IMG/VR virus record: IMGVR_UViG_2850761752_000006
Origin: a virus
Taxonomy: Duplodnaviria; Heunggongvirae; Uroviricota; Caudoviricetes
Reading direction: 5' to 3' (one strand)
DNA length: 22,991 nucleotides
Each line of letters begins with the position of its first letter. The first letter of the stretch is position 1. A program made the translations under genes and the position numbers. The notes under the pieces are model-generated. The model saw nothing but the letters and a program-made list of their open reading frames with translations, was not told where the DNA came from and ran no database searches. Below are positions 16,104-19,384 of the stretch, piece after piece.

Positions 16104-16434
16104 ACCAGCATAAATCCGGTAGCGCCTTCCTCCGGGTTTGTGCTTCACTTTATCCCATCTCATTTTTTTACACACAAAATGTACCATAAGCACTTTACAA
16201 CAATGAACGCAAAGTACATTATATACCTGCCACCCACCCCGCCCCACAGAATGCAGGGCAATACTTCGAGTTACCAGGCAGTGGTCAGGGGTTAAGTAGC
16301 CAGCCCGAGGCGTAAGAACATGACGGCAGGGTTCAACTTTAATAACTATGCAGCAGGTTTTTGTTCCGCTACCCCGGCGTTAAGGGGAAATGAGGTCAGC
16401 ATGGATACTATCGATCTTGGGTAATGACTCCAAC

Positions 16435-16938
16435 TTACTGATAGTGTTTTATGTTCAGATAATGCCCGATGACCTTGTCATGCAGCTCCACCGATTTTGA
16501 GAACGACAGTGACTTCCGTCCCAGCCTTGCCAGATGTTGTCTCAGATTCAGATTATGTCGCTCAATGCGCTGAGTGTAACGCTTGCTGATAACGTGCAGC
16601 TTTCCCTTCAGGCGTGATTCATACAGCGGCCAGCCATCCGTCATCCATACCACGACCTCAAAGGCCGACAGCAGGCTCAGAAGACGCTCCAGTGTGGCCA
16701 GAGTGCGTTCACCGAAGACGTGCGCCACAACCGTCCTCCGTATCCTGTCATACGCGTAAAACAGCCAGCGCTGACGTGATTTAGCACCGACGTAGCCCCA
16801 CTGTTCGTCCATTTCAGCGCAGACAATCACATCACTGCCCGGTTGTATGCGCGAGGTTACCGACTGCGGCCTGAGTTTTTTAAGTGACGTAAAACCGTGT
16901 TGAGGCCAACGCCCATAATGCGTGCACTGGCGCGACAT
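16435..16938 (-). CDS. insB: IS1 InsB reading frame
   Basis: Identical 167-aa translation to copy 1. Confidence 0.9.
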
Positions 16939-17132
16939 CCGACGCCATTCATGGCCATATCAATGATTTTCTGGTGCGTACCGGGCTGAGAGGCGGTGTA
17001 AGTGAACTGTAGTTGCCATGTTTTACGGCAATGAGAGCAGAGATAGCGCTGATGTCCGGCAGTGCTTTTGCCGTTACGCACCACGCCTTCAGTAGCGGAG
17101 CAGGAAGGACATCTGATGGAAATGGAAGCCAC
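16857..17132 (-). CDS. insA: IS1 InsA
   Basis: Identical 91-aa translation to copy 1. Confidence 0.95.
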
Positions 17133-17224
17133 GCAAGCACCTTAAAATCACCATCATACACTAAATCAGTAAGTTGGCAGCATTACCCTGCAACCGCTAT
17201 GAAAAAGGCGGGAAAGATGGCATC

Positions 17225-19384
17225 ACAATGACATTTATCGGCCCTTCCCCCTCTGTTCAGGACAAATCAGCCAGCACTGATAATACCAACATCAACGGCG
17301 AAGACATGACTGAGATTGAGGAGAGCATGCTTCTACCTGTCTCCGGTCAGGAACTGCCCATTCGTTGGCTTGCTCAACACGGCAGCGAAAAACCAGTAAC
17401 GCACGTTTCACGCGACGAACTCCAGGCATTACACATTGCACGGGCTGAAGAACTACCGGCTGTTACTGCCCTGGCTATTTCGCATAAAACCAGTCTGCTC
17501 GACTCGCTGGAGATTCGCGACCTCCACAAACTGGTTCGTGACACTGACAAAGTTTTCCCTAATCCTGGTAATTCAGACCTGGGACTAATAACTGCTTTTT
17601 TCGAAGCATACTTGGACGCTGACTACACTGTTCGGGGCCTGCTGACAAAAGAGTGGATGAAAGGAAATCGTGTTTCACGCATCACCCGCACGGCTTCCGG
17701 TGCTAATGCTGGTGGTGGGAACAAAACCGATCGCAATCCGAATTTAGTACACACCCTCGACACACTGGATGTGGAGATTGCAGCAGCCACACTTCCGATG
17801 GATTTTAATATTTATGAAATTCCGGGCAGCGTTTATCGTCGCGCAAAAGAAGTAGTCCTGAAAAAAGAAAGTCCGTTCAAAGAATGGTCCGCAGCACTTC
17901 GTGCACCCCCGGGTATTCTGGACTATTCCCGCGCCGCTATTTTTGCACTTATCCGAAGCGCACACCCTGAATTTTATCACTACCCGGGACGCCTTCAGGG
18001 GTATATCAACGCCTATTTGACGGAAACTGATCACGAGAACCCCAGCAAGGAAACTCTCACAGCTACCCGGCATACGCCGGAAAAAGATATCCTGGAAGAA
18101 ATTAACCGCGAGGTGGTTACTGAGCGTGAAACAGAAGAAGAAAAACCACAACCATCTGACGCAATGGCAGGTGAACAGGCAACAACTGAAACAATGGAAC
18201 CGGATACAACTGAACATTGCCAGAACGCGCAGTCGCTGGATGCTCAGTCGCAGGTGAGTTCCGCTAACCAAGTAAAAGTCACCGCTGACGAAGTAAACAA
18301 AATTATGCAGGCAGCCAATATCAGCCAGCCTGACGCCGATAAGTTACTTGCTGTATCGCGTGGTGAATTTGTTGAGGGGATTAGCGACCCTAATGATCCG
18401 AAATGGGTCAAGGGGATCCAGACTCGCGATTCTGTGAACCAGAACCAGCATGAATCGGAACGGAACGACCAAAAAGCGGAACAAAACAGCCCAAATGCGT
18501 TACAAAACGAGCCAGAAACGAAACAATCCGAACCAGTAGCGCAACAGGAACCGGAAAAAGTCTGCACCGCCTGCGGTCAGAGCGGTGGCGGCAACTACCC
18601 TGATTGTGGCGCGGTGATGGACGACGCAACATACCAGAAAACATTCGATGAAGAGAATCAGGTTGAAGTTCAGGAAAATGATCCGGAGGAAATGGAAGGC
18701 GCTGAACATCCACACAAGGAGAATGCTGGCAGCGCTCAGGACCACGCCAGCGATAGTAAAACTGGCGAGACGGCAGATCCCTTAATTACGGTGAATGGTC
18801 ATCACGAAATCACATCCACCAGCAGGACGTGTGACCATCTAATGATCGACCTTGAAACCATGGGAAAAAATCCTGATGCCCCGATCATCTCAATAGGTGC
18901 AATATTTTTCGATCCGCAAACCGGAGATATGGGACCCGAATTTAGTAAGACTATCGATCTGGAAACTGCTGGCGGAGTCATTGATCGGGACACCATTAAA
19001 TGGTGGCTTAAGCAATCACGCGAAGCGCAATCTGCCATTATGACCGATGAAATCCCGTTAGATGATGCACTGTTACAATTGCGGGAATTTATCGACGAAA
19101 ACTCCGGTGAATTTTTTGTTCAGGTCTGGGGAAATGGAGCCAACTTCGACAACACGATTTTGCGCCGTTCATACGAACGGCAGGGGATCCCCTGCCCGTG
19201 GCGTTACTACAACGATCGCGATGTACGCACAATCGTTGAGCTGGGGAAAGCCATAGACTTCGATGCCAGAACGGCTATTCCATTCGAAGGTGAGCGCCAT
19301 AATGCACTTGATGACGCTCGTTACCAGGCAAAATACGTTTCAGCTATCTGGCAAAAACTGATCCCGAGTCAGGCTGATTTTTAA
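17225..19384 (+). CDS. RecE-like exonuclease gene, 5'-truncated by IS1; C-terminal DnaQ-like (DEDDh) 3'-5' exonuclease domain
   Basis: ORF 17174..19384(+) begins inside IS1; first native ATG at 17225. Segment [41 protein letters not shown] matches my memory of the RecE N-terminal region. C-terminus has the motifs [14 protein letters not shown] and [10 protein letters not shown]. May be a non-functional remnant. Confidence 0.6.

What the first reader, a model, noticed from the sequence alone, without database searches (positions are those of the whole stretch)
16401..17230. IS1 copy 2 lacks a target duplication and abuts a 19-nt gene stub
Seen: flanks tcgatcttg and ctgcaaccg differ. On the left an RBS (AAGGGGAAATGAGG) and ATGGATACTATCGATCTTG run straight into the IS1 end; on the right the RecE-like ORF lacks its 5' end. 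Inference: an IS1-mediated adjacent deletion removed the early-left genes that normally lie between the repressor and the exonuclease in Rac-type prophages.
Basis: partly seen in the sequence, partly recalled or inferred. Interest (0 to 1): 0.45.

Follow-up and report, generated by a model that had tools for sequence, protein, structure and literature searches.

The report
IS1-bounded deletion in Shigella prophage remnant
An IS1 insertion sequence in a decayed Shigella boydii prophage sits exactly where about 1.8 kb has been lost (the toxic dicB/DicF cell-division-inhibitor operon plus the start of an exonuclease gene); this is an ordinary example of IS-driven genome decay in Shigella.

Summary
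IS1 copy 2 is window 16420-17187: 768 bp, intact insA/insB, transposase on the minus strand. Its 9-bp flanks, TCGATCTTG and CTGCAACCG, do not match. The identical, inverted copy 1 (11731-12498) has a perfect duplication, TCAGGCGGC.

The left flank is the first 19 nt of ydfA. The right flank starts at nt 246 of an 813-codon exonuclease gene.

Colinear prophages at the same mtfA/tRNA-Ser locus carry about 1.8 kb between these two points: the rest of ydfA, ydfB, ydfC, the DicF sRNA, dicB, ydfD and 82 exonuclease codons. This holds for E. coli and for other S. boydii-labelled assemblies.

None of 5,426 complete E. coli genomes has either IS1 junction, and none has the two flanks adjacent. Seven S. 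boydii assemblies, including Sb227, share both junctions exactly.

- The lost genes are the Qin-type dicBF operon, not Rac early-left genes.
- The exonuclease is RecE-like only in its N-terminal two thirds; its nuclease domain is DEDD-type.
- A one-step adjacent deletion cannot be separated from recombination between two IS1 copies, because no precursor was found.

This is a known kind of event and of low interest.

The parts
15684..16103 (+). DicA-like helix-turn-helix repressor gene (139 aa), intact, upstream of the deleted operon
   Evidence: Pfam HTH_3. Weak NCBIfam match to DicA, 56.8 bits against a cut-off of 101. Annotated as a helix-turn-helix protein in the colinear E. coli prophages.
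16104..16400 (+). Intergenic leader of the former ydfA-dicB operon. Contains a promoter-like site at 16194-16222 and a GAGG ribosome-binding site at 16393-16396.
   Evidence: Colinear with L003 at 98.9% identity. The promoter-like site is a consensus match only. The sequence was read directly.
16401..16419 (+). 19-nt stub of ydfA (DUF1391). It reads MDTIDLG, then a TAA stop supplied by the IS1 end.
   Evidence: Identical to the first 19 nt of ydfA in L003 at 9558-9576.
16420..17187 (-). IS1 copy 2, 768 bp. Terminal inverted repeats at 16420-16442 and 17165-17187. insA at 17132-16857 and insB frame at 16938-16435, both on the minus strand. No target-site duplication.
   Evidence: ends and 100% identity to copy 1. 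(Pfam Zn_ribbon_InsA, HTH_Tnp_IS1, DDE_Tnp_IS1). (flanks). A promoter-like site at 17180-17153 on the minus strand reads into insA.
17188..19384 (+). 5'-truncated exonuclease gene, running from the third base of codon 82 to the stop. The first in-frame ATG is at 17228 and gives the 718-aa product annotated in S. boydii Sb227. The C-terminal DEDD exonuclease domain is retained.
   Evidence: breakpoint. (domains). (the exact protein is ABB65639.1 of S. boydii Sb227).
11731..12498 (+). IS1 copy 1, the comparison copy. It is a simple insertion with a perfect 9-bp duplication, TCAGGCGGC, at 11722-11730 and 12499-12507.
   Evidence: The empty site in L002 shows the expected 9-bp overlap of the two alignments.

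Best explanation
The window is a decayed lambdoid prophage at the mtfA/tRNA-Ser(CGA) locus of Shigella boydii, Sb227-like lineage.

In this lineage about 1.8 kb has been deleted. The deletion runs from nt 20 of ydfA to nt 245 of the exonuclease gene, and a single IS1 sits exactly at the joint. The lost DNA carried the rest of ydfA, ydfB, ydfC, the DicF sRNA, dicB, ydfD and the first 82 codons of the exonuclease.

The most likely route has two steps:
1. An IS1 first inserted at one of the two present junctions and made the usual 9-bp duplication.
2. One of its ends then attacked a site about 1.8 kb away on the same molecule (intramolecular transposition, the classical IS1 'adjacent deletion'). 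This removed the intervening DNA together with one copy of the duplication.

The result is one IS1 with unrelated flanks.

Shown here: the deletion, its exact end points, its content, the IS1 at the joint, and its fixation in one S. boydii lineage.

Inferred: the one-step transposase-driven route. Also inferred is that the remaining exonuclease fragment is a silent pseudogene, because it has no promoter of its own and lies behind an IS1.

The confidence of 0.58 is for the adjacent-deletion route specifically. That this is an IS1-bounded deletion of the dicBF operon, by either IS1 route, I put at about 0.95.
For: - Both flanks map to one prophage, in the same orientation, about 1,798 bp apart. 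This holds in five independent intact relatives at the same chromosomal locus: L002 and L003 and L014-L016.
- The interval contains ydfA, ydfB, ydfC, dicB and ydfD by annotation. DicF is found by Rfam at 76.7 bits and DicB by NCBIfam. DicF is absent from the window and from the Sb227 locus.
- The IS1 is complete to its last base at both joints and has no duplication. Copy 1, 3.9 kb away, has a perfect one.
- None of 5,426 E. coli genomes shows the flanks adjacent or either IS1 junction.
- Both junctions are identical in seven S. boydii assemblies. These assemblies differ in whether the IS629-like insertion in int is present, so the IS1 deletion is the older event.
- dicF is recorded as lost on the Sb227 branch (PMC3318445, Table 1).
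- Missing duplications are commonly due to adjacent deletions or to IS-IS recombination. All 14 IS150-plus-deletion events in the long-term evolution lines were adjacent deletions from a pre-existing IS (PMC11708052).
- The 91-aa N-terminal exonuclease fragment expected from a second IS1 sitting at the right-hand site is not among about 15 billion predicted proteins.
Against: - No precursor was found with IS1 at only one of the two sites and the interval intact. The step order and the one-IS route are therefore not demonstrated.
- The final structure is identical to that left by recombination between two direct IS1 copies.
- IS1 is locally dense: there are two copies within 4.7 kb here, and another S. 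boydii-labelled genome has an independent IS1 in codons 6-8 of the same exonuclease gene. A second nearby copy is therefore not far-fetched.
- The search for precursors covered complete E. coli genomes and predicted proteins. It did not cover a systematic set of Shigella DNA.
Confidence: 0.58

Rival explanations
1. Two independent IS1 insertions in direct orientation, one in ydfA (duplication TCGATCTTG) and one in the exonuclease gene (duplication CTGCAACCG). Homologous recombination between them then removed the 1.8 kb and one IS1 copy.
For: It leaves exactly the observed scar. IS1 copies here are 100% identical and locally dense. An independent IS1 sits in codons 6-8 of the same gene, in the same orientation, in CP026836.1. 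IS-IS recombination is a recognised cause of missing duplications (PMC11708052; PMC8072062).
Against: It needs three events instead of two. Neither single-insertion junction occurs in 5,426 E. coli genomes. The predicted 91-aa product of the right-hand single insertion is absent from the 15-billion-protein collection. The IS1 in CP026836.1 is at a different site and is a different variant (790 bp, 97% identical).
Confidence: 0.33
2. The unmatched flanks result from a larger IS1-IS1 exchange: an inversion or translocation, a join of two different prophages, or movement of a composite IS1-flanked segment. On this view the 1.8 kb survives elsewhere in the genome.
For: Shigella genomes are heavily rearranged through insertion sequences. 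The same window holds an IS600-like element at 8015-9278, also without a duplication, that joins unrelated phage modules. The two IS1 copies are inverted and flank a 3.9-kb segment.
Against: - Both flanks of copy 2 belong to one colinear prophage, on the same strand and at the same locus.
- The segment between the two IS1 copies is in the reference orientation.
- Copy 1 keeps its own perfect duplication, so no exchange with copy 2 has taken place.
- The outer flanks of the IS1 pair do not match, so this is not a composite transposition.
- No part of the missing interval, and no complementary flank, lies within 10 kb either side in four long S. boydii loci.
- dicF is reported lost from Sb227.
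Confidence: 0.04
3. An assembly artefact: contigs wrongly joined across the IS1 repeat.
For: Short-read contigs do break inside this IS1 (L011-L013).
Against: The same two junctions occur in two complete chromosomes and five further long contigs from independent projects.
Confidence: 0.01
4. A simple IS1 insertion whose duplication has decayed by point mutation, or an ancestral arrangement in which the stub and the exonuclease were always neighbours.
For: None beyond the absence of a duplication.
Against: About 1.8 kb of otherwise conserved sequence is missing exactly at the IS1 ends. A 19-nt gene start and a gene lacking 82 codons cannot be an ancestral state. None of 5,426 genomes shows the adjacency.
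Confidence: 0.01

Closest known systems
IS1-promoted adjacent deletions (classical gal-region deletions in E. coli, recalled from the 1970s-80s literature) and the IS-adjacent deletions documented in experimental evolution (PMC11708052)
   Same: A single complete IS lies exactly at a deletion joint. There is no target duplication. The flanks are colinear in undeleted relatives.
   Different: Here the event is only inferred from comparison. No time series or precursor shows that an IS1 was resident at one of the two sites before the deletion.
dicBF operon of the Qin cryptic prophage of E. coli K-12 (ydfA-ydfB-ydfC-dicF-dicB-ydfD, repressed by DicA; PMC5069750)
   Same: The interval missing from the window has exactly this gene order and content in the intact relatives. 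It lies downstream of a helix-turn-helix repressor gene.
   Different: The prophage is at the mtfA/tRNA-Ser locus, not the Qin locus. The repressor matches the DicA model only weakly (56.8 bits against a cut-off of 101). In the window nothing of the operon remains except its leader and 19 nt.
RecE (exodeoxyribonuclease VIII) of the Rac prophage
   Same: The N-terminal and central part of the exonuclease matches Pfam Exonuc_VIII and positions 96-603 of the 877-position NCBIfam RecE model. It also occupies the same place in the early-left region, next to xis/int.
   Different: The score is below the model's cut-off (764.8 against 1269). The C-terminal catalytic domain is an Rv2179c-like DEDD 3'-5' exonuclease rather than a match to the RecE model's C-terminal part. 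No RecT-like gene follows; a DUF4224 gene and int come next.
IS-driven genome decay in Shigella (PMC8072062; Yang et al. 2005, cited from memory and not readable here)
   Same: IS1, IS600-like and IS629-like elements interrupt, truncate and join prophage genes within 23 kb.
   Different: Nothing different in kind; this is one more instance.

Membership tests
IS1 family insertion sequence | Length of about 768 bp with imperfect terminal inverted repeats of about 23 bp starting GGT | tested here: met
   16420-17187 is 768 bp. The ends are GGTAATGACTCCAACTTACTGAT and GGTAATGCTGCCAACTTACTGAT, 20 of 23 complementary.
IS1 family insertion sequence | insA (zinc ribbon plus HTH) followed by an overlapping insB frame carrying the IS1 DDE transposase domain | tested here: met
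   Pfam Zn_ribbon_InsA and HTH_Tnp_IS1 on 17132-16857. DDE_Tnp_IS1 (E = 1.3e-74) on 16938-16435. The run of A's expected at the frameshift site is visible as TTTTTT at 16875-16880 on the plus strand, inside the insA/insB overlap.
IS1 family insertion sequence | A direct duplication of 9 bp (occasionally 8 bp) of the target at a simple insertion | tested here: not met
   Copy 2 has TCGATCTTG against CTGCAACCG, 2 of 9 identical. The feature is met for copy 1 (TCAGGCGGC). This failure is the finding itself and is explained by the deletion; it does not argue against copy 2 being an IS1.
IS-associated (adjacent) deletion | A complete IS terminus lies exactly at the deletion joint, and the two flanks are colinear, on the same strand and separated by extra DNA in undeleted relatives | tested here: met
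   Window 16419/16420 and 17187/17188 map to L003 9576/9577 and 11375, with about 1,798 bp between them. The same result holds in L002 and L014-L016.
IS-associated (adjacent) deletion | An IS was resident at one of the two end points before the deletion (a precursor state) | tested here: inconclusive
   No such junction occurs in 5,426 E. coli genomes or in the three intact S. boydii-labelled loci. The predicted 91-aa fragment is absent from the protein collection. Shigella DNA could not be searched systematically.
dicBF operon (Qin type), as the content of the deleted interval | Gene order ydfA-ydfB-ydfC-DicF-dicB-ydfD downstream of a repressor gene | tested here: met
   Shown in the intact relatives: annotation of L002 and L003; DicF at 76.7 bits against a gathering score of 48; DicB NCBIfam at 130.7 bits against 100; DUF1391 for YdfA.
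RecE / exodeoxyribonuclease VIII | A full-length match to the RecE equivalog model, including its C-terminal nuclease domain | tested here: not met
   NCBIfam PRK09709 scores 764.8 bits against a cut-off of 1269 and covers only model positions 96-603 of 877. The C-terminus is instead Pfam Rv2179c-like, E = 8.3e-68.
Rac-type early-left region | Rac genes (kilR, sieB, racC and others) between the repressor and the exonuclease | tested here: not met
   The intact relatives carry ydfABC-dicF-dicB-ydfD there instead. The Rac gene list is from my own knowledge. A Rac sequence was not aligned here.

The most novel reading that the evidence does not exclude
The loss of the dicBF operon may not be neutral decay. 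It could be one of several convergent, selected removals of a prophage-borne cell-division and metabolism regulator in Shigella lineages. dicF losses are inferred separately on the S. dysenteriae, S. flexneri, S. sonnei 046 and S. boydii Sb227 branches (PMC3318445), and IS1 may be the usual tool. An independent IS1 hit sits at the 5' end of the same exonuclease gene in another S. boydii-labelled genome. On this reading dicBF would act like an anti-virulence or toxic locus for the intracellular lifestyle.
Probability: 0.1. Interest if true: 0.4.

Novelty: already known. Interest (0 to 1): 0.1.

Why it matters
It matters little beyond correct annotation. Three practical points follow:
- In S. 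boydii Sb227-type genomes the 718-aa 'exodeoxyribonuclease VIII' is a 5'-truncated remnant.
- The ORF start next to the IS1 is a 19-nt relic of ydfA.
- This deletion is a likely physical cause of the reported absence of DicF from Sb227, although other dicF copies were not examined.

If the loss of the toxic dicBF operon were shown to be selected in Shigella, it would add a case to the list of pathoadaptive deletions. Nothing here shows that.

Tried and rejected
- Inversion between the two inverted IS1 copies: rejected. Copy 1 has its own perfect duplication and the 3.9-kb segment between the copies is in the reference orientation.
- Composite IS1-segment-IS1 transposition: rejected, because the outer flanks do not match.
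- Search for either IS1 junction in complete E. coli genomes: none found. The only hits covering at least 80% of the query were unrelated IS1 sites at 86-88% identity.
- Exact look-up of the 91-aa product predicted for an IS1 at the right-hand site, in both IS1 orientations: not in the collection.
- Full-length exonucleases from Shigella-labelled assemblies, taken from the homology search. L014 and L015 are intact. L016 has an IS1 at a different site with an 8-bp duplication. None is a precursor.
- Outward or hybrid promoter at the IS1/exonuclease joint: the consensus scan found none. By eye, TTGGCA at 17174-17179 followed 18 nt later by TATGAA fails the scan's criteria.
- Microhomology: GCAAC occurs right after the left breakpoint (L003 9577-9581) and 2 nt after the right one (11377-11381). 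I judged this to be chance, roughly 5% for some 5-mer within a few bases. It plays no part in either IS1 route.
- Yang et al. 2005 (the Sb227 genome paper) could not be read: the PMC id I recalled for it is not held.
- I did not use the genome contigs or metagenome-contig scans. One representative genome per species and JGI metagenomes are unlikely to hold S. boydii sister strains.
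Full report
**What is in the sequence**

The IS1 terminal sequence occurs four times in the window, against none expected by chance. It defines two 768-bp elements, 11731-12498 and 16420-17187, that are 100% identical and inverted relative to each other.

Copy 2 has its transposase genes on the minus strand. insA (17132-16857) matches Pfam Zn_ribbon_InsA and HTH_Tnp_IS1. The insB frame (16938-16435) matches DDE_Tnp_IS1.

The nine bases to the left of copy 2 are TCGATCTTG and the nine to the right are CTGCAACCG. Only 2 of 9 positions agree, so there is no target duplication. Copy 1 is flanked by a perfect TCAGGCGGC on both sides. Its empty site is seen in an E. coli relative, where the two alignments overlap by exactly nine bases.

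To the left of copy 2 there is a GAGG ribosome-binding site at 16393-16396 and an ATG at 16401. Nineteen nucleotides of ORF follow, and the IS1 end closes the frame as MDTIDLG-stop.

**Where the window comes from**

- The 718-aa product of the truncated gene, read from the ATG at 17228, is exactly ABB65639.1 of Shigella boydii Sb227.
- Window 7228-22991 is 100% identical to CP026731.1 and 99.97% identical to the Sb227 chromosome CP000036.1.
- No complete E. coli genome matches either flank perfectly.

**What is missing**

Window 9284-22991 is colinear with a lambdoid prophage integrated next to tRNA-Ser(CGA) and mtfA in many E. coli. I took the prophage in CP145099 (locus L003) as the main reference.

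- Window 13334-16420 aligns to L003 6491-9577.
- Window 17188-19947 aligns to L003 11375-14135, on the same strand.
- The window therefore lacks L003 9577-11374, about 1,798 bp.

The same interval is present in a second E. coli (L002, 98.9% identical) and in three assemblies labelled S. boydii. Those three still have the full-length exonuclease at the same locus: L014, L015 and L016.

The interval holds:
- the rest of ydfA (DUF1391), ydfB and ydfC;
- the DicF sRNA (Rfam RF00039, 76.7 bits against a gathering score of 48);
- dicB (NCBIfam, 130.7 bits against a cut-off of 100) and ydfD (DUF1482);
- the first 245 nt of an 813-codon exonuclease gene.

DicF is absent from the window and from the Sb227 locus. 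The stub is the first 19 nt of ydfA. Base 20 of ydfA is also G, like the first base of IS1, so the left breakpoint is ambiguous by one base.

**The refutation test**

I joined 100 nt of the left flank directly to 100 nt of the right flank and searched 5,426 complete E. coli genomes. None has the two flanks adjacent. None has either IS1 junction.

Seven S. boydii assemblies, two of them complete chromosomes, carry both junctions base for base. These assemblies differ in whether the IS629-like element (window 19946-21255, 3-bp duplication AGG) is present in the integrase gene. The IS1-bounded deletion is therefore older than that insertion. It is also not an assembly artefact.

**How it arose**

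A complete IS with unrelated flanks at a deletion joint is the expected scar of two routes:
- an adjacent deletion made by a resident IS through intramolecular transposition;
- homologous recombination between two direct IS copies.

Both are recognised causes of missing duplications (PMC11708052; PMC8072062). I looked for a precursor that would separate them and found none.
- Neither single-insertion junction occurs in E. coli.
- The 91-aa N-terminal exonuclease fragment that an IS1 at the right-hand site would create is absent from about 15 billion predicted proteins. The first 84 residues of this protein are identical in three diverged references, so the prediction is well defined.
- Of the S. 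boydii-labelled loci with a full-length exonuclease, two are intact. The third (CP026836.1) has a different IS1 variant: 790 bp, 97% identical, same orientation. It sits in codons 6-8 with its own 8-bp duplication AGAATTTG, so it is an independent simple insertion at another site.

I favour the one-IS adjacent deletion because it needs fewer events, at about 0.58 against 0.33 for two-copy recombination. This split is a judgement, not a result.

**Rearrangement explanations**

These are unlikely for five reasons.
- Both flanks of copy 2 belong to one prophage and lie on the same strand.
- The DNA between the two IS1 copies is in the reference orientation.
- Copy 1 keeps its own duplication.
- No part of the missing interval, and no complementary flank, lies within 10 kb either side in four long S. 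boydii loci.
- A published survey infers loss of dicF on the Sb227 branch (PMC3318445, Table 1).

**What remains and what it probably does**

The repressor gene (15684-16103) is intact. It matches Pfam HTH_3, with a weak DicA match of 56.8 bits against a cut-off of 101. The operon leader is also intact and has a promoter-like site at 16194-16222, which is a consensus match only.

The exonuclease fragment keeps its catalytic domain, a Pfam Rv2179c-like DEDD 3'-5' exonuclease at residues 632-803 of the full protein. It has lost 82 N-terminal codons, including part of the Exonuc_VIII region at residues 57-189.

No sigma-70-like promoter faces outward from the IS1 end. The only site there is the inward insA promoter-like match at 17180-17153 on the minus strand. 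IS1 insertions are generally polar (my own knowledge). I therefore infer that the fragment is silent.

The S. boydii allele has five private changes relative to five relatives. Two are synonymous. Three are replacements: D230V, T322P and C552Y, the last in a CxxC...CxxC motif. This fits relaxed constraint, but the sample is too small to show it.

**Comparison with known systems**

The lost operon is the dicBF operon described for the Qin prophage of E. coli K-12. Its ectopic expression cuts viability more than 100-fold, mainly through DicB (PMC5069750).

'RecE-like' is right for the N-terminal two thirds of the exonuclease: it matches positions 96-603 of the 877-position NCBIfam RecE model at 764.8 bits. 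The score is below the cut-off of 1269 and the nuclease domain is of a different fold family, so the protein is not a RecE.

**Verdict**

This is one ordinary instance of IS-mediated prophage decay in a published Shigella genome. It is not novel and is of low interest.

The only reading with some interest is that loss of the toxic dicBF operon is selected and convergent in Shigella. The evidence here neither supports nor excludes that. I give it a probability of about 0.1.

Noticed in passing
window 8015-9278: An IS600-like element (1,264 bp; ORFs 8079-8381 and 8417-9235 with an rve domain) also lacks a 3-bp target duplication (CAC against CTG). It joins Mu-like baseplate genes (7324-8063, minus strand) to a DUF968 gene truncated to 252 aa (349 aa in L003). 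Colinearity with the E. coli prophage starts only at 9284. This looks like a second IS-bounded rearrangement or deletion joint.
   Followed up: partly
window 1-7275: The left end carries a pgl-like lactonase gene (1-762, minus strand). Next comes an IpaH-family E3 ubiquitin ligase gene (1636-3462; LRR_TTSS plus NEL domains), then phage tail-fibre and tail-fibre-assembly genes. This is a chromosomal ipaH in a prophage remnant. It is now adjacent to the mtfA-locus prophage, although the pgl and mtfA regions are far apart in E. coli K-12 (my own knowledge).
   Followed up: partly
window 19946-21255: An IS629-like element (1,310 bp, inverted repeats TGAACCGCCCCGGG..., 3-bp duplication AGG, ALIL frameshift pseudoknot at 20804-20920) splits the prophage integrase gene. 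It is present in the window and in L005, L006, L009, L012 and L013. It is absent from Sb227 (L004) and from L007, L008, L010 and L011, so it is younger than the IS1 deletion.
   Followed up: yes
L016 7225-8014 (CP026836.1, labelled S. boydii): An independent IS1 (790-bp variant, 97% identical, same orientation as copy 2) is inserted in codons 6-8 of the same exonuclease gene, with an 8-bp duplication AGAATTTG. The dicBF operon upstream is intact. IS1 has therefore hit this gene at least twice in Shigella-labelled genomes.
   Followed up: yes
window 22013-22101 (minus strand): The T-stem of tRNA-Ser(CGA) has CCCC where all ten other loci examined, including Sb227, have CCCCC. The Rfam score drops from 57 to 47 bits. 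Only this assembly (CP026731) shows it, so it is probably a homopolymer sequencing error, less probably a strain-specific mutation. The Shigella alleles also carry a compensatory G-C for A-T pair in the variable arm relative to E. coli L003.
   Followed up: partly
window 17630, 17906, 18596: There are three lineage-specific amino-acid replacements in the truncated exonuclease: D230V, T322P and C552Y. The last removes the third cysteine of a CTAC...CPDC motif. There are two lineage-specific synonymous changes. This fits relaxed constraint but the numbers are too small to test.
   Followed up: partly
window 10482-10807: An intact hokD-type toxin ORF (10482-10694, minus strand) and a sok antisense RNA (Rfam, 115.6 bits, 10632-10807, minus strand) survive in the prophage remnant, between the truncated DUF968 gene and IS1 copy 1.
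   Followed up: no
L003 9577-9581 and 11377-11381 (the reference positions of the two breakpoints): The pentamer GCAAC lies immediately after the left breakpoint and 2 nt after the right breakpoint. I judged it to be coincidence. It plays no role in either IS1 mechanism.
   Followed up: no
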